Shown here: positions 25,489 to 37,206 of the stretch, piece after piece | How positions within the stretch are numbered: position 1 is the first letter of the stretch | Layout: every line of letters starts with the position of its first letter | IMG/VR virus record: IMGVR_UViG_3300027911_000003 | Coordinates: 1-60,286 of that record | From: a virus | Taxonomy: Duplodnaviria; Caudoviricetes | Length of the DNA: 60,286 nt | Strand: one strand, 5' to 3' | Program-made: the position numbers and the translations under genes | Notes under the pieces: generated by a model | Seen by the model: only the letters and a program-made list of their open reading frames with translations | Databases searched by the model: none | What the model was told of the DNA's origin: nothing

Positions 25489-25716
25489 ATGAAGCGAACG
25501 AGGTCATCTCACGCGGTCGAGTTGCGCCGTCTTTTAACTCGCGGTCCGGCTTTCAGCTTTGCGGTTTTTGGCGTGGATGGAGCCCGCGACATGACGCCAG
25601 AAGTTCGACATGCAGTCCAAGTCGCCGTTGAAGCTGCTACGCGCGGCTGGCTACAAACATGGGTGTTGCCCGAGGTTGCGGCGCTTGTTCCAGAGTTTAA
25701 GGATTGGCGATCATGA
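25489..25716 (+). CDS. Hypothetical protein
   Basis: GGAG RBS; first gene of a plus-strand unit. Confidence 0.65.
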   Translation: MKRTRSSHAVELRRLLTRGPAFSFAVFGVDGARDMTPEVRHAVQVAVEAATRGWLQTWVLPEVAALVPEFKDWRS

Positions 25717-25814
25717 CCTTCTTCGCACATCTGATCTGGGCTGCTATCTCGCTGGCCTGCGCTGTTGCTGGGGCTATCGGCGGAGCGACTGTTCTCATAG
25801 GAGCATTGTCATGA
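25713..25814 (+). CDS. 33-aa TM micropeptide
   Basis: MTFFAHLIWAAISLACAVAGAIGGATVLIGALS; ATGA-coupled at both ends. Confidence 0.6.
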   Translation: MTFFAHLIWAAISLACAVAGAIGGATVLIGALS

Positions 25815-26116
25815 GCTACCTTATTGGAAAACTGCCACAACATATGCACGGCGCTATAATGCGATGGATCAATAATGGCACACCGCCGGGCGACTTCCTG
25901 ACAGCGCTGCTTTCTAATGATCTTCGAGAGACGTTCGCGAAAGCCGACGACACGAATGCCTTGTGCATTAAAGACTGCATCATATTCTTTTATAACGCCG
26001 CACCGTCCGGCTGCTGGGGCTCTCCTGAGAATGTCCAATCGTGGGCCGCTCATAATGGGCTGAAGGGTCTGCGCGCGCGTCATCAGCGTGTAACTGCGGA
26101 GGACGATCCATCATGA
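25811..26116 (+). CDS. Phage hypothetical protein
   Basis: PPGDFLTALLSNDL...APSGCWGSPE motif. Confidence 0.75.
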   Translation: MSYLIGKLPQHMHGAIMRWINNGTPPGDFLTALLSNDLRETFAKADDTNALCIKDCIIFFYNAAPSGCWGSPENVQSWAAHNGLKGLRARHQRVTAEDDPS

Positions 26117-28689: not shown

Positions 28690-29006
28690 CGCTCGGTCTC
28701 CGCTTCATCCGCCGACCAAACATTCTCGACAATCCATCGCGAGAGATGAGGGCCAACCTTTGGCGGGTCGGCTCGGTATTCCGCCGTCAAGCGCGCGGTT
28801 TTCGCGATTGGTAATTCCGAATATTTGCGGTCGATTTGGTTAGCCTGCCGAGTTGCTAGGCTTTCAGCCAATGTCGCCAGACCTGCAGATACCCGCGCTC
28901 GCTCTGCCGGATCGATAACCTGACCAGGGGGTGCTTCGCGGTAATGCGACATTTTGAACCGCTGCAACGCGGGAAGCGCCGATACGGGAGCCGCTCGTTT
29001 TTTCAT
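28686..29006 (-). CDS. Hypothetical protein downstream of the initiator-like gene
   Basis: ATGA-coupled; 106 aa. Confidence 0.6.
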   Translation of the reverse strand: MKKRAAPVSALPALQRFKMSHYREAPPGQVIDPAERARVSAGLATLAESLATRQANQIDRKYSELPIAKTARLTAEYRADPPKVGPHLSRWIVENVWSADEAETER

Positions 29007-29383
29007 GGCCGTGGCTCCGCCGATGCGAGCCCAGCGCCATTCGGCGGCCATTCTGACGGGAAGTGCCATCCTATTCCCAGTTTATCGACGGGGGGCGTTT
29101 TGCCCTTAGATCGTCGATACTCGATTTCCCATGCCGCCCACTGCGGCGTTCCTATTTTGACGAATACTTTGCCGTTTTCGTGTTCAGACGTCTTATTAAG
29201 ACCATTTAAGACGTTTTCAGACGTCTTAGTAAGACTTTTAAGATAATATCTTCGGTTTATCGCCTGTCTCACGGGATTTACCTCTCGCTTATGGCTATCG
29301 ATGACAATTTGGATAACCGCCTGCAACTTGTCCCCAAGTTCGAGCGCTAGCAGCCGCTCCAATGTTGCCGCCGATATGCCCAC
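29003..29383 (-). CDS. Small replication initiator-like protein with internal iterons
   Basis: RQAINRRYY basic helix, internal DNA repeats, VFVKIGTPQWAAW...GWHFPSEWPP C-terminus; lambdoid O position. Confidence 0.55.
   Translation of the reverse strand: MGISAATLERLLALELGDKLQAVIQIVIDSHKREVNPVRQAINRRYYLKSLTKTSENVLNGLNKTSEHENGKVFVKIGTPQWAAWEIEYRRSKGKTPPVDKLGIGWHFPSEWPPNGAGLASAEPRP
29183..29244. repeat. Iteron-like repeats (candidate origin)
   Basis: TTCAGACGTCTTA(T/G)TAAGAC at 29183 and 29216 (19/20 identical, 33-bp period); AGAC/AGAT at 29186, 29199, 29209, 29219, 29232, 29241; AT-rich. Confidence 0.65.
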
Positions 29384-29399
29384 TTCGTCCCTACCAGTC

Positions 29400-29865
29400 T
29401 TATTTTCCTATGTTCATGCTTGTTGGTGAGGTCTGAGTAAGGGCATAGGACGACCAGCCCTGCTGAATTAGCAAGGCCAGTCCCCACGCCCTCACCGATC
29501 TTGCTTGCCGGAGCCAGCCGTCGTTTCGGGCGGCAATCTCGCGACGCTGCGGATTGCCTTGGCGCCTACTTTTCAGAGCTTTGCGTCGCTCTAGCGGTCG
29601 GACCTCGCGCCTTTCGGACCAGTCCTGCATCTTTGCCGCGCCCCCTGGTGATGCTTTTTGCCTGATTCGCCCCAGCGTCCTCAGTTTCTGGAACCGCCGA
29701 CGAATTAGGATGCTTCGAAAGCCTCCTTTGTTAGGATGAACGAACAGACGAACGTCATGCGCCCAGCCCTAGGGCTTGCGTTCGGATGCGCGAAACTGTA
29801 TATGGGTTGTCGGTCACGATTGCTCCGTGGCTCGCCTAGACCAGGGTCGGCAAACCCCCTAGGCA
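29400..29865 (-). ncRNA. Long structured RNA (about 470 nt) upstream of the initiator-like gene
   Basis: No credible CDS; many stems; roughly 28-bp hairpin at 29436-29496 with G-U pairs valid only on the minus strand. Confidence 0.65.
29775..29804 (+). promoter_or_regulatory. Antisense-RNA promoter
   Basis: CTTGCG-N17-GTATAT, close to the rhizobial CTTGAC-N17-CTATAT consensus. Confidence 0.55.
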
Positions 29866-29870
29866 TCTAT

Positions 29871-29901
29871 ACGATAGGCGCAAATCATGCGCTTCGTCAA
29901 G
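29871..29901 (-). promoter_or_regulatory. Promoter of the long RNA
   Basis: CTTGACG-N18-TATCGT; predicted start near 29864 matches the first hairpin GCCTAG/CTAGGC. Confidence 0.5.
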
Positions 29902-29903
29902 AA

Positions 29904-29937
29904 CCGCTCGGCAGCCCCAGCCGGGCGGTTTTTCGTT
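29904..29937 (+). terminator. Intrinsic terminator antisense to flanking genes
   Basis: 9-bp stem CCGCUCGGC/GCCGGGCGG (U-G wobble only on plus strand) then UUUUUCGUU. Confidence 0.7.
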
Positions 29938-29968
29938 AGAGGGCGCGCCAACAATTCCTCGTAAGCGC

Positions 29969-30382
29969 TCACGCTCGTTTCCTCGCTTCTCGCGTCCAAG
30001 CAAGCGCCTCGGCGATGGCGGTCGCAACGCGGGCTTCCGATTGGGCCAGGGCGCGCGCGATTTGCCAACTGTTGAATTTGCTTGGGCCTGCGAACAGTTC
30101 AAGCGCTACCCGGTGAAAGTCCGTCATGCGAGGTTCTGCATCTGCTAGAACCTCGCAAGAGTTATTCCCAATAACTTCATCGGCGCAGCAGATGAAATCA
30201 GCGTGGAAGGAATACGGCTTTTTGTTATGGTCCCATTTTATCCATAGACAATCAGCGAGGGTGCTATGTCCGGTCACTGTGCCACGGAATGTAGGACGTT
30301 CTGGCATCGTCTGCCAGAGACGGTCTATCCCTTTCGGAGACAGCTTAACCCGATCTCCCACACGAAAGTCAGGCATCTTCAC
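29969..30382 (-). CDS. Hypothetical protein (SH3-like N-terminus, HTH-like C-terminus)
   Basis: FRVGDRVKL; NSWQIARALAQSEARV. Confidence 0.6.
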   Translation of the reverse strand: MKMPDFRVGDRVKLSPKGIDRLWQTMPERPTFRGTVTGHSTLADCLWIKWDHNKKPYSFHADFICCADEVIGNNSCEVLADAEPRMTDFHRVALELFAGPSKFNSWQIARALAQSEARVATAIAEALAWTREARKRA

Positions 30383-30857: not shown

Positions 30858-31225
30858 AGACAACCCCCATGTCCGTCGCGAATCAGTTCGGCGTGCTCCT
30901 TTGCGAGATCGTGCATATTCTCATTGATATTAATCGCATATTGAAATGTGCATAAGAAAAAATAGATATTAGCGCAATCAAGGCAGAGGAAATACGGCGC
31001 GCGTGGCGGCCCATTTTCATACTCTTCGCCATAGATTTTACGTTCAATCTCGCATTCAGGAATTTTCCATCGCTTGAATTTTGCTGACAACTCTCCTGGC
31101 CTAACGATGTTATTGCACGACCGGCATTTTGTCGCTCGCTTCCGGTCGCATGGCGCTATTTTATTGCAGGCCGTCCAGCAAATAGCGCCAGGCTTTGGAT
31201 CCCAATCGTAATCGCATGTCAGCAT
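30854..31225 (-). CDS. Cys-rich putative Zn-binding protein
   Basis: CRSC and CLDC pairs. Confidence 0.65.
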   Translation of the reverse strand: MLTCDYDWDPKPGAICWTACNKIAPCDRKRATKCRSCNNIVRPGELSAKFKRWKIPECEIERKIYGEEYENGPPRAPYFLCLDCANIYFFLCTFQYAININENMHDLAKEHAELIRDGHGGCL

Positions 31226-31458
31226 TTCTTTCGCCTCTTTCTCGGCGCCCAGAGATCGGGCCGCAACGCGCTCCGCTTGATCCTGCCCTTGGTGGCGGTC
31301 TCAATCGCTATCGCGACCTTCGGGCCGCACCAGTTCGTCTTGATGCTGATGTTGATCGCGGCTTCCGTGATCGCGCCTAACCGCGCGAGTTCGGCCTGAG
31401 AGCCGACAATCTCTATGGCTTGGCGCAATCTCTCTGCGACTTGGCTATTTTCTGACAT
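31219..31458 (-). CDS. Cro/YdaS-like HTH regulator
   Basis: AIEIVGSQAELARLGAITEAAI...IETATKGRIKRSALRPDLW. Confidence 0.85.
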   Translation of the reverse strand: MSENSQVAERLRQAIEIVGSQAELARLGAITEAAINISIKTNWCGPKVAIAIETATKGRIKRSALRPDLWAPRKRRKKC

Positions 31459-31465
31459 GGTTGCT

Positions 31466-31553
31466 TGCTTAAAGCGATTTGCGGCGTTTGGCAAGAGGGA
31501 GTTAAAATAATTTTCGCAGAGGGCTTGCGCGGCGCGGAAAAATGATTTAAGCC
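31466..31553. promoter_or_regulatory. Divergent early promoters
   Basis: Minus TTGCCA-N17-TAAGCA (31494-31466); plus TTGCGC-N17-TAAGCC (31525-31553). Confidence 0.6.
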
Positions 31554-31615
31554 TCTGTCTCGCCGTTACGGTTGCTTGCGAATCAACCGGGCAACCGATG
31601 GCGATTGGAGATGAT

Positions 31616-31900
31616 ATGATGCCCCGTCCTGTTCTTGTCACTACAGAATTTCGCGCCGTATTCTTCGGTTATGCCGAGGATACTAGCGGCGATCCGATCA
31701 CGCTGACTAACGCTCGCAACTGCATTTATTGGCCTTTGGCAAATGGCGGGTTCGGTGGTCTCGCTAGCGAAGGGCCGGCGAAAGGATCGCGCATCGGGGC
31801 GGTTGTTCCAAAACTGGAGCTTCGTAAGATCACGTCTGTCGCAGAAGTCTCCGAAGTCGCCGCCAAGGAATGGGAAAGCGCGAAGGTGTATCGTGGTTAA
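31616..31900 (+). CDS. DUF6948-like phage protein
   Basis: VLVTT...VFFG...LTNARNCIYW...LASEGP motif; GGAG RBS. Confidence 0.75.
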   Translation: MMPRPVLVTTEFRAVFFGYAEDTSGDPITLTNARNCIYWPLANGGFGGLASEGPAKGSRIGAVVPKLELRKITSVAEVSEVAAKEWESAKVYRG

Positions 31901-37176: not shown

Positions 37177-37206
37177 AAAACGCCCGGCCGCGCGAGGCGG
37201 CCGGGC
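37177..37206 (-). terminator. GC-rich hairpin with U-tract on the minus strand
   Basis: 10-bp stem GCCCGGCCGC/GCGGCCGGGC preceded by AAAA on plus. Confidence 0.5.

What the first reader, a model, noticed from the sequence alone, without database searches (positions are those of the whole stretch)
29400..29937. Long structured RNA plus convergent antisense RNA at the replication locus (RNA II/RNA I-like)
Seen: about 540 bp without a credible CDS in an otherwise densely packed genome. A minus-strand promoter (29901-29871) fires into a hairpin-rich stretch of about 470 nt ending at the initiator-like gene. A plus-strand promoter (29775-29804) and a plus-only intrinsic terminator (29904-29937) define an RNA of about 125 nt that overlaps the first 55 nt or so of the long RNA and its promoter. 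Established: ColE1 (RNA II primer about 550 nt, RNA I about 108 nt) and repABC ctRNAs use a similar geometry. No primase, helicase or polymerase gene is evident. Inference: an RNA-primed or antisense-controlled replicon in a P22-like phage.
Basis: partly seen in the sequence, partly recalled or inferred. Interest (0 to 1): 0.85.

Follow-up and report, generated by a model that had tools for sequence, protein, structure and literature searches.

The report
Conserved structured RNA before phage initiator gene
The gene-free stretch in front of this phage's small replication-initiator gene holds a folded RNA element of about 280 bases that recurs in a few other phages, plus a strong terminator on the opposite strand, but nothing shows that it works like the plasmid ColE1 primer system.

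Summary
There is a 585-bp gap (29384-29968) with no credible conserved gene inside the minus-strand early operon of a complete 60-kb phage, just upstream of a 126-aa iteron-bearing initiator-like gene. The plus-strand terminator (29902-29930 plus T5) is real and is the cleanest in the genome. Both proposed promoters are weak consensus matches.

The new result is that the gap has two parts. The proximal 280 nt or so (29397-29678, minus strand) is homologous to noncoding DNA upstream of small initiator-like genes in three other phage or metagenome contigs, with a partial copy in a fourth. It folds into at least four helices. Three of them have 11 of 21 pairs changed on both sides, with 58 of 62 cells paired and 0 of 500 shuffles as good. 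The fold is better on the sense strand in every locus. No Rfam family matches.

The distal 290 nt or so, which holds the terminator and both promoters, is unique to this phage.

The RNA II/RNA I (ColE1) reading is not supported: there is an initiator gene with iterons, the antisense unit is not conserved, and it does not overlap the conserved structure. My best reading is a new cis-acting structured leader RNA at a lambda-like replication module, with a lineage-specific antisense unit resembling lambda pO/oop or a ctRNA. Its function is untested.

The parts
29969..30382 (-). Upstream early-operon gene, 137 aa, unknown function. By my reading its C-terminus looks HTH-like; this is not supported by any search.
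   Evidence: ORF. No Pfam hit. Weak phrog_11307 hit, E 0.0086.
29679..29968 (.). Distal part of the gap. Unique to this phage. Carries the terminator and both putative promoters.
   Evidence: No blastn match to L061, L064, L062 or L032, while the neighbouring 29397-29678 matches.
29899..29937 (+). Intrinsic terminator on the strand antisense to the early operon. Core stem 29902-29930, T run 29929-33.
   Evidence: (I3).
29775..29804 (+). Putative promoter of a plus-strand RNA of about 125 nt (CTTGCG-N17-GTATAT). Unverified.
   Evidence: Read from the sequence. Not reported by the scan. The -35 resembles the early promoters described in note e1-6282959 (sequence).
29871..29900 (-). Putative minus-strand promoter (TTGACG-18-TATCGT). 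Unverified.
   Evidence: 9 of 12 matches. About half of such sites are expected by chance.
29397..29678 (-). Conserved structured RNA element; a new motif.
   Evidence: blastn to L061 7172-7452 (68% identity, E 7e-30) and to L064 7544-7747 (E 7e-18). L064 matches L032 at E 2e-15. Alignments.
29600..29625 (-). Helix Pa. A 4-5 bp stem closing a 16-nt loop that holds the conserved UCCGAAAG.
   Evidence: helix 1: 2 of 5 pairs changed on both sides.
29574..29593 (-). Helix Pb, a 6-bp hairpin.
   Evidence: helix 2. Four different arm sequences in four loci, all forming the hairpin.
29532..29558 (-). Helix Pc, a 10-bp hairpin with a bulged A on the 3' side in all four loci.
   Evidence: helix 3: 7 of 10 pairs changed on both sides, 96.7% of cells paired.
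29509..29520 (-). Conserved block CGGCYGGCUCCG.
   Evidence: Invariant apart from the Y in 5 loci. Used as a search anchor.
29436..29496 (-). Helix Pd, a long hairpin of 27 bp with many G-U pairs and a 2-nt bulge. The 3' arm holds the conserved CCUAUGCC.
29425..29433 (-). Conserved block GACCUCACC(A), 41 nt upstream of the GTG start.
   Evidence: Invariant in 5 loci.
29003..29383 (-). 126-aa initiator-like gene. It has internal iterons (29179-29240, GTCTTA/TAAGAC core) and a C-terminal W-rich module shared with DUF1376/DnaT-type phage replication proteins.

Best explanation
The region is the long untranslated leader that separates the upstream early genes from the small iteron-bearing initiator-like gene. 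The replication module is lambda-like: a Cro/YdaS-like gene leads the minus-strand operon and recombination genes lie on the other arm.

SHOWN. The proximal 280 nt or so (29397-29678, minus strand) is a conserved multi-helix structured element (Pa, Pb, Pc, the block CGGCYGGCUCCG, the long hairpin Pd, the block GACCUCACCA). It recurs upstream of small initiator-like genes in L061, L064 and L032. L062 has a partial copy, with no initiator match found there. The helices keep pairing through compensatory changes, and the fold is better on the sense strand. It is in no Rfam family.

INFERRED. The element acts in cis on the early-operon transcript to set how much initiator (and downstream replication protein) is made. 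The route could be processing or stability (a 27-bp helix is RNase III-sized), protein binding or antitermination. Direct occlusion of the ribosome-binding site is unlikely to be the conserved mechanism, because the distance to the start codon varies (14-131 nt).

The distal 290 nt or so is specific to this phage. It carries the genome's cleanest intrinsic terminator on the antisense strand. INFERRED: a short antisense transcript (about 50-125 nt; promoter unverified) ends there. By duplex formation or by convergent transcription it would damp read-through, or a local minus-strand promoter, into the leader. This resembles lambda pO/oop or a plasmid countertranscript. Replication itself is most likely initiator-and-iteron driven, not RNA-primed.
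For: Operon context. YdaS/Cro-like and DUF1064 genes lie upstream on the same strand. ERF, YqaJ and NinB lie on the divergent arm.

Initiator. Its iterons are conserved as a GTCTTAA-type core between this phage and L032. A profile search found 264 representative proteins sharing the C-terminal module, most of them 280-320 aa. One long-type relative (L002) scores DUF1376 and DnaT.

Element homology. E 7e-30, 7e-18 and 2e-15.

Covariation, helices Pa to Pc. A model seeded from this phage plus L061 finds L064 (29.7 bits, E 1.6e-5). On that alignment 58 of 62 cells pair (93.5%) and 11 of 21 pairs change on both sides. None of 500 shuffles reaches this on any measure. Slid controls give 30-40% pairing and 1-2 such pairs.

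Covariation, helix Pd. A model seeded from this phage plus L064 finds L061 (68 bits). 71 of 81 cells pair and 6 of 27 pairs change on both sides (9 of 500 shuffles as good). Slid controls give 39-49% pairing. L032 and L062 have unrelated hairpin sequences at the same place.

Strand. Pd is more stable on the sense strand in 5 of 5 loci. For the 215-nt element, sense z is -3.4, -1.9, -1.9 and -2.8, against antisense -0.6, +1.0, -1.4 and -1.6.

Not coding. The frames through the element are open for 122, 86, 59, 46 and 89 codons, with inconsistent starts and ends. The conserved CCUAUGCC is read in different frames in different loci. BLASTP between the two longest ORFs gives E 1.3.

Terminator..

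Literature analogues. The repABC ctRNA, the large leader stem-loop and the oriV inside repC: PMC3155836 (passages read). Lambda pO/oop as a convergent promoter next to ori, once thought to be a primer: PMC3985674 (passages read).
Against: There is no transcript evidence for either strand. The one RNA-library contig that maps (28808-29070) lies outside the gap and could be DNA carry-over.

Only 4 full homologous loci and 1 partial locus exist. Each formal pair count used 3 sequences, on alignments fitted to a structure derived from this phage's own sequence, so the counts are inflated to an unknown degree.

Model R2 missed L032 at E <= 0.001. Through genome search it matched only 1 of 3 records: L061's, but not L064's. 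Model R3 missed L032 and L062.

The cis-regulatory function is pure inference. The variable distance to the start codon and the absence of a conserved pairing with the ribosome-binding site argue against the simplest translational model. The antisense unit is absent from L032, L061 and L064, so it is not part of the conserved mechanism. Both promoters are weak. Long stop-free frames end at the initiator start in this phage (25 of 2000 shuffles as long) and in L032 (73 of 2000), so a translated leader ORF is not fully excluded.
Confidence: 0.45

Rival explanations
1. Origin RNA. The conserved structured RNA is made next to the iterons and is processed to prime DNA synthesis, or it forms an R-loop that opens the origin. 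That would be a hybrid of lambda-type and ColE1-type initiation. The plus-strand RNA would be its inhibitor in this phage.
For: The element lies directly upstream of the iteron array in 3 of the 4 full loci: iterons inside the gene here and in L032, and GGTGGAA x4 between element and gene in L061. No primase, helicase or polymerase was found among the ORFs scanned. The strongest sequence conservation is at the 3' end (CCUAUGCC...GACCUCACCA), as might be expected for a processing site. The distance to the start codon varies, so the element is not tied to translation.
Against: An initiator-like protein with iterons is present, so a primer RNA is not needed. For lambda, the idea of oop as a primer was abandoned because DnaG suffices (PMC3985674). 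No RNA I, RNA II or ctRNA family matches. The antisense unit does not overlap the conserved element and is not conserved. I saw no G-rich/C-rich hybrid-forming tract, but I did not test for one formally.
Confidence: 0.1
2. A stand-alone non-coding RNA gene. The element would be cut out of the early transcript, or separately transcribed, and act in trans, for example as a decoy, an anti-defence RNA or a regulator of host or phage mRNAs. It would merely be parked next to the replication genes.
For: Several covarying helices and a size of 215-280 nt are typical of functional ncRNAs. The flanking genes differ between loci: the upstream gene is unrelated in all four, and the initiators share mainly the C-terminal module. 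The spacing to the downstream gene varies.
Against: In all 4 full loci the element sits immediately upstream of an initiator-like gene on the same strand. No conserved promoter or terminator brackets it. Only one copy was found per record.
Confidence: 0.15
3. A single-stranded DNA signal rather than an RNA. The strand-specific hairpins would form on the displaced or lagging template and act as a primosome-assembly or priming site for the origin.
For: The strand bias fits ssDNA as well as RNA. Long-type relatives of the initiator carry a DnaT-like domain, which links the family to primosome biology. The element adjoins the iterons.
Against: Many positions rely on G-U/G-T wobble pairs, which are weaker in DNA. 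Known sites of this kind (recalled, not checked here) are shorter, single hairpin clusters. I did not fold the element with DNA parameters.
Confidence: 0.1
4. The gap is protein-coding after all. A 76-aa basic protein (29400-29630, -), or a translated leader ORF coupled to the initiator, explains the conservation.
For: A stop-free frame of 122 codons ends 17 nt before the initiator start (25 of 2000 shuffles as long). In L032 an 89-codon frame overlaps the start as GTGA (73 of 2000). Both read the GACCUCACC block as T-S-P. A gene caller predicted the ORF once (P0152).
Against: Across 5 loci the frame has inconsistent starts and ends. In L062 there is no start codon until 6 codons before the stop. 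In L064 the frame runs 160 nt into the initiator gene. In L061 it ends 107 nt short. CCUAUGCC is read in different frames in different loci. BLASTP between the two ORFs gives E 1.3. There are no homologues. The codon-usage score does not single out the frame: -0.20, against -0.22 for another frame. Helices covary at the nucleotide level.
Confidence: 0.07
5. The distal unit is an opposite-strand 'moron': a small plus-strand gene (67-aa ORF, 29736-29939) with its own promoter and terminator, inserted between early genes.
For: The ORF fits the phage-specific insert 29679-29968. It has a strong terminator at its end. Its in-frame codon score (-0.12) is better than its other frames (-0.52, -0.37).
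Against: The stop codon (29937-29939) lies after the terminator's T run (29929-29933), so terminated RNA would lack a stop codon. The ATG at 29736 lies upstream of the only plausible promoter. There are no homologues, and no gene call for it exists in the protein collection. There is no Pfam or PHROG hit.
Confidence: 0.05

Closest known systems
repABC plasmids: the inc-alpha region with its ctRNA and leader stem-loop upstream of repC (PMC3155836, passages read)
   Same: An intergenic region inside an operon, directly upstream of the initiator gene. A large stem-loop in the sense leader. An antisense RNA gene with an intrinsic terminator. The origin lies inside the initiator's coding sequence (here inferred from the iterons).
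   Different: No match to any Rfam family, ctRNA families included, at E up to 10. The initiator is not RepC (no Pfam hit). Here the antisense unit lies about 400 nt from the big hairpin, is not conserved, and does not overlap the conserved structure. The sense element is much larger, with at least four helices. This is a phage, not a plasmid.
Phage lambda cII - pO/oop - O (ori-lambda) region (PMC3985674, passages read)
   Same: A lambdoid early operon. An antisense-oriented transcription unit placed just upstream of an initiator gene that carries iterons. A convergent-promoter geometry that could limit transcription reaching the origin. Historically, oop was also proposed as a primer.
   Different: The putative antisense RNA ends about 32-35 nt short of the upstream gene and so overlaps no coding sequence, whereas oop is described as antisense to the cII transcript. 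Lambda has no counterpart of the 280-nt structured element. No sequence or Rfam similarity.
ColE1 RNA II / RNA I
   Same: A long structured sense RNA near an origin, and a shorter antisense RNA with a terminator. This is geometry only.
   Different: ColE1 needs no plasmid initiator protein or iterons (recalled); both are present here. The antisense RNA here does not pair with the structured part. No Rfam match. No evidence for RNase H or Pol I dependence.
Antisense-controlled rep leaders of plasmids R1 (CopA/CopT, tap) and the IncB/IncI-alpha group
   Same: A structured leader upstream of a rep gene, with possible coupling to an upstream reading frame.
   Different: The leader ORF is not conserved. 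The antisense unit is far from the initiator's start. No similarity was tested or found.

Membership tests
ColE1-type RNA II / RNA I replication control | Sequence and structure match to the RNA I family in Rfam | tested here: not met
   No family reached its gathering score in the whole window. At E up to 10 over 29300-30050 and 29780-29960 only unrelated sub-threshold hits appeared.
ColE1-type RNA II / RNA I replication control | Replication independent of an element-encoded initiator protein and iterons (feature recalled from memory) | tested here: not met
   A 126-aa initiator-like gene with internal iterons lies directly downstream. That it is the functional initiator is inferred.
ColE1-type RNA II / RNA I replication control | The antisense RNA is complementary to the structured 5' part of the primer RNA | tested here: not met
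   The putative plus-strand RNA (about 29810-29934) lies wholly in the non-conserved part 29679-29968. The covarying helices lie at 29436-29625. No trans complementarity beyond chance (77 of 300 shuffles as good).
ColE1-type RNA II / RNA I replication control | Primer maturation by RNase H and extension by DNA polymerase I | not testable with these tools
   Needs experiments.
repABC ctRNA / inc-alpha | Rfam ctRNA family match | tested here: not met
repABC ctRNA / inc-alpha | Antisense RNA gene in the intergenic region before the initiator gene of an operon | tested here: inconclusive
   The terminator is present on the antisense strand. The promoter is unverified. The unit lies about 520 nt from the initiator start, and no such unit was found in L032, L061 or L064.
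repABC ctRNA / inc-alpha | RepC-family initiator | tested here: not met
   No Pfam hit for the 126-aa protein or its relatives.
Lambda pO/oop antisense unit | Antisense RNA overlapping the 3' end of the upstream (cII) gene | tested here: not met
   The T run ends at 29933. The stop codon of the upstream ORF occupies 29969-29971.
Lambda pO/oop antisense unit | Placed between an early regulator gene and an initiator gene that carries the origin iterons | tested here: met
   Gene order and iterons. The identity of the 137-aa protein is unknown.
New structured leader element (defined here) | Ordered helices Pa, Pb, Pc (with a bulged A), the CGGCYGGCUCCG block, the long hairpin Pd and the GACCUCACCA block, on the sense strand upstream of a small initiator-like gene with the W-rich C-terminal module | tested here: met
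   This phage, L061, L064 and L032 have all the parts. L062 has only the two blocks and the hairpin, and no initiator match was found there.

The most novel reading that the evidence does not exclude
The 280-nt element is a new class of origin RNA. Under this reading it is a structured transcript made beside the iterons of a minimal initiator-plus-iteron phage replicon that has no primase or helicase of its own. It would open or prime the origin, so that initiation needs both an initiator protein and a dedicated structured RNA. In this phage a short antisense RNA from the adjacent insert would throttle its synthesis.
Probability: 0.1. Interest if true: 0.85.

Novelty: new variant of a known kind. 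Interest (0 to 1): 0.62.

Why it matters
Structured leaders and countertranscripts are classic controllers of plasmid replication, but they are little documented for phage initiator genes beyond lambda oop.

This work defines a conserved, covarying, strand-specific RNA element of about 280 nt that no Rfam family matches. It sits next to the iterons of a widespread but uncharacterised family of phage initiator-like proteins, whose C-terminal module is shared with DUF1376/DnaT-type replication proteins. That makes the element a concrete handle on how minimal, host-dependent phage replicons regulate or fire their origins.

If the element proves to be part of the origin mechanism, it would link protein-initiated and RNA-initiated replication. 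If it is a regulatory leader, it is still a new RNA motif with clear mutational tests.

Tried and rejected
Is the gap a decayed N-terminus of a long initiator? tblastn of the 306-aa (L002) and 317-aa (L031) relatives against 28900-30100 matched only the C-terminal module. Stand-alone homologues of 107-135 aa exist. Rejected.

Leader-ORF and translational-coupling model. It looked attractive from two loci but was not upheld by five.

Three-part switch (GGUGAGG / CCUCACC / ribosome-binding site) from note e1-6282949. In the minimum-energy fold CCUCACCA pairs with UGGUAGGG near the start. The pairing partner is not conserved in L032, L061 or L064, and the 27-bp hairpin is far more stable than the alternative. 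Not adopted.

Rhizobiales-2 RNA (RF01723). It scored 23.9 bits against a threshold of 40, at E 0.39-1.6, mainly through the terminator hairpin. It did not register in a family search of the record. Two papers only list the name (listing seen). Dropped.

Trans pairing of the plus-strand RNA with the initiator leader. No better than shuffles (77 of 300).

Searches that found no further loci: phage-collection blastn; protein-pattern scans; the pattern scan.
- One search gave 25 loci. The 24 I examined were 20 complete long-type genes of 235-398 aa, one 142-aa protein that shares only the C-terminal part, and 3 fragments cut by contig ends. The 25th is the L002 contig.
- One search gave one weak Tannerella MAG locus (L058), which I did not follow.
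- Five phages with related TerL lack the region (0 of 5 by DNA; 0 of 5 with model R3). One of the five has a long-type protein.

Reads. Three DNA runs were identical to the window over what they cover, with no variants. The RNA run gave one 265-nt contig outside the gap. Parts without cover say nothing.

Of the 12 loci, I judged 9 (L059, L060, L063, L065-L070) to be chance matches in GC-rich DNA. The reasons: no initiator match, no flank similarity, and no hits with models R1 or R3. This judgement was partly by eye.

Literature. A search for bacteriophage + iterons + antisense RNA + initiator + leader found 0 papers. A search for DUF1376 found 6 papers, none relevant by title or abstract. The library lacks most subscription journals, and supplements were closed.
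Full report
CONTEXT. The window is a complete virus record of 60,286 bp with direct terminal repeats. It has no tRNA genes. Its TerL is about 42% identical to terminases of Acidovorax AP1, BPP-1-like and Caulobacter podophages. DNA runs that hold the region are freshwater metagenomes.

The finding lies in a minus-strand early operon. A YdaS/Cro-like gene (31219-31641) leads it, followed by a 123-aa ORF, a DUF1064 gene, a 48-aa ORF and a 137-aa ORF (29969-30382). Then comes the gap (29384-29968), then a 126-aa ORF (29003-29383) and further small ORFs. The divergent plus-strand arm encodes DUF6948, ERF, YqaJ, NinB and HNH proteins. The layout is therefore lambdoid. None of the ORFs I scanned is a helicase, primase or polymerase, but I did not scan all ORFs.

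THE INITIATOR-LIKE GENE. The 126-aa ORF contains 24-nt repeats at 29179-29202 and 29212-29235, built on GTCTTA/TAAGAC.
- It has a 51%-identical 122-aa homologue (P0002) and a 42%-identical 131-aa homologue on the metagenome contig L032. L032 also carries GTCTTAA-type repeats inside the gene.
- A profile search of 1.84 billion representative proteins found 264 proteins at E <= 0.001. About ten are short, full-length relatives (107-190 aa). Most are 280-320-aa proteins that share only the C-terminal W-rich module of about 45 aa.
- One long-type example (L002) scores DUF1376 and DnaT.
- Calling the gene 'initiator-like' is therefore reasonable but inferred.
- The gap is not a decayed N-terminus of a long form.

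CHECKING THE OBSERVATION. The gap holds no ORF with a family or homologue. The codon-usage score does not single out any frame.

The plus-strand terminator is real and outstanding. The stop codon of the 67-aa plus-strand ORF lies after the T run, which argues against that ORF.

The two promoters are weak consensus matches. The minus-strand one scores 9 of 12, and such sites are only twice as frequent as in shuffles. The plus-strand one was not reported by the scan. A second plus-strand candidate (TCGGCA-N17-TACGAT, 29847-29875, my reading) would give an RNA of about 52 nt.

The 492-nt minus-strand stretch as a whole is only modestly structured (z -1.98). The hairpin at 29436-29496 is exceptional and strand-specific.

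HOMOLOGOUS LOCI. The contig L032 showed the same layout: an upstream gene (the end of a DnaA_C-like ORF), a 380-bp gap, a hairpin, a conserved block and a GTG start aligned with ours.

From the two shared blocks I built a pattern, and my last viral scan returned 12 loci. Two of them (L061, L064) encode initiator-like proteins just downstream (tblastn; ORFs of 107 and 109 aa). A third (L062) shares the blocks, a hairpin and 14 identical bases downstream, but no initiator match was found there. I judged the other nine to be chance matches.

The homology reaches far beyond the anchors:
- window 29678-29397 matches L061 7172-7452 (68% identity, E 7e-30);
- window 29619-29417 matches L064 7544-7747 (E 7e-18);
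- L064 7467-7741 matches L032 300-577 (E 2e-15).

L061 also has a Cro/YdaS-like gene two genes upstream. It carries four GGTGGAA repeats at a 12-nt period between the element and its initiator gene.

Nothing in these loci matches window 29679-29968.

STRUCTURE AND COVARIATION. Folding the aligned sub-regions one locus at a time gave the same architecture in all four full loci, despite different arm sequences:
- Pa, a 4-5 bp stem closing a 16-nt loop with the conserved UCCGAAAG;
- Pb, a 6-bp hairpin;
- Pc, 6-8 bp plus 3-4 bp separated by a single bulged A on the 3' side;
- Pd, a long hairpin.

To avoid circularity as far as I could, I seeded one covariance model (R2: Pa to Pc) from this phage plus L061 only. 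It found L064 at 29.7 bits (E 1.6e-5) but missed L032 at E <= 0.001. On the resulting three-sequence alignment:
- 58 of 62 cells pair (93.5%);
- 11 of 21 pairs change on both sides;
- 0 of 500 shuffles reach any of the five measures;
- sliding the 3' partners by 1-3 columns gives 30-40% pairing and 1-2 such pairs.

Model R1, which was trained on all four loci, aligned L032 with no non-standard pair flagged.

A second independent model (R3: Pd plus blocks, seeded from this phage plus L064) found L061 at 68 bits and nothing else among 69 sources. On that alignment 71 of 81 cells pair and 6 of 27 pairs change on both sides. Between 9 and 25 of 500 shuffles reach four of the five measures, and 138 of 500 reach the count of further pair types. 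Slid controls give 39-49% pairing.

Pd is more stable on the sense strand in 5 of 5 loci. The 215-nt element has a more negative z on the sense strand in 4 of 4 loci.

Caveats: there are few sequences, the alignments are fitted to the structure, and the structure was derived from this phage's own sequence. Through genome search, R2 matched L061's record but not L064's.

CODING? Long stop-free frames end at the initiator start here and in L032. Over five loci, however, the frame's starts and ends are inconsistent, and the conserved CCUAUGCC is read in different frames. The two ORF products are unrelated. I consider a conserved protein unlikely, but a translated leader is not excluded.

WHAT IT IS. 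The gap has two parts.

Part 1 (29397-29678, minus strand) is a conserved structured element found with small initiator-like genes. It is a new motif, matched by no Rfam family. Its distance to the start codon varies (41, 14, 131 and 38 nt). The conserved role is therefore probably not simple masking of the ribosome-binding site. Candidates are processing or stability, protein binding, antitermination, or an origin-linked role.

Part 2 (29679-29968) is specific to this phage. It holds a strong antisense-strand terminator and two face-to-face weak promoters whose -10 regions overlap (my reading). It most plausibly makes a short antisense RNA, or simply sets up convergent transcription. Either would limit transcription entering the leader.

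The closest analogues are lambda pO/oop and the repABC ctRNA region. In repABC a ctRNA, a large leader stem-loop and an origin inside repC coexist (PMC3155836, passages). For lambda, pO lies next to the origin and opposes pR, and oop was once thought to be a primer until DnaG was shown to suffice (PMC3985674, passages).

WHY NOT ColE1-LIKE. An initiator-like gene with iterons is present. There is no RNA I or ctRNA family match. The antisense unit does not touch the structured part and is absent from L032, L061 and L064. L062 has a strong antisense-strand terminator about 270 nt upstream of its hairpin, which I did not follow up. An origin-RNA role for the conserved element cannot be excluded, and I keep it as the boldest open reading (probability about 0.1).

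NO EXPRESSION DATA. The only RNA-library contig that maps lies at 28808-29070, and the DNA runs show no variants.

VERDICT. The substantive result is a new, covariation-supported structured RNA element at a phage replication module. Its function is unknown. My best guess is a cis-acting leader (confidence about 0.45).

Noticed in passing
window 29003-29383; P0002-P0034; L002, L031, L033-L057: A W-rich module of about 45 aa (...GTPQW.AW...GW.FPSEWPP) ends both small proteins (107-190 aa) and 280-320-aa phage proteins. The long-type example L002 scores DUF1376 and DnaT. 264 representative proteins match at E <= 0.001. The module appears to have no Pfam model of its own.
   Followed up: partly
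window 29179-29240 and L032 777-856: The iteron core GTCTTAA is conserved between two loci whose proteins are 42% identical. It is translated as K/L-rich peptide repeats (LKSL.K.SENVLNGL). The DNA repeats and the protein linker are therefore the same sequence.
   Followed up: partly
L061 7509-7556: Four (C/T)GGTGGAA repeats at a 12-nt period lie between the structured element and the initiator-like gene. This looks like an iteron array outside the gene in this relative.
   Followed up: no
window 31459-31468 and 31571-31580: GGTTGCTTGC occurs twice in the divergent Cro-side control region. These may be operator or promoter elements (compare note e1-6282959).
   Followed up: no
window 37182-37206 (-): A strong minus-strand terminator-like hairpin (10 G-C pairs, then GTTTTGCGTT) lies at the end of the plus-strand recombination-gene arm, on the opposite strand.
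   Followed up: no
window 28808-29070: A metatranscriptome run (X6) holds one 265-nt contig identical to the 127-aa ORF region just downstream of the initiator gene. It could be RNA or DNA carry-over.
   Followed up: partly
window 29428-29441: An iteron-like 14-mer (12 of 14 identical to the iteron GACGTCTTAGTAAG) overlaps the base of hairpin Pd and the conserved block. It may be an initiator-binding site in the leader (autoregulation) or a chance match.
   Followed up: no
L062 6739-6766 (-): A very strong antisense-strand terminator (12-bp stem, -27 kcal/mol, T4) lies about 270 nt upstream of the L062 hairpin. This is a second locus with an antisense terminator upstream of the element.
   Followed up: no
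window 29842-29931 (+): Sub-threshold similarity of the putative plus-strand RNA to the Rhizobiales-2 RNA (RF01723): 23.9 bits against a threshold of 40. All three model hairpins align, and the terminator stem is nearly identical in sequence.
   Followed up: partly
window 25610-26116 (+): A 168-aa plus-strand ORF with a plausible protein-like C-terminal half sits among minus-strand early genes. The best promoter-like site of the region (10 of 12) lies at 25832-25860. It may be an opposite-strand insert.
   Followed up: no
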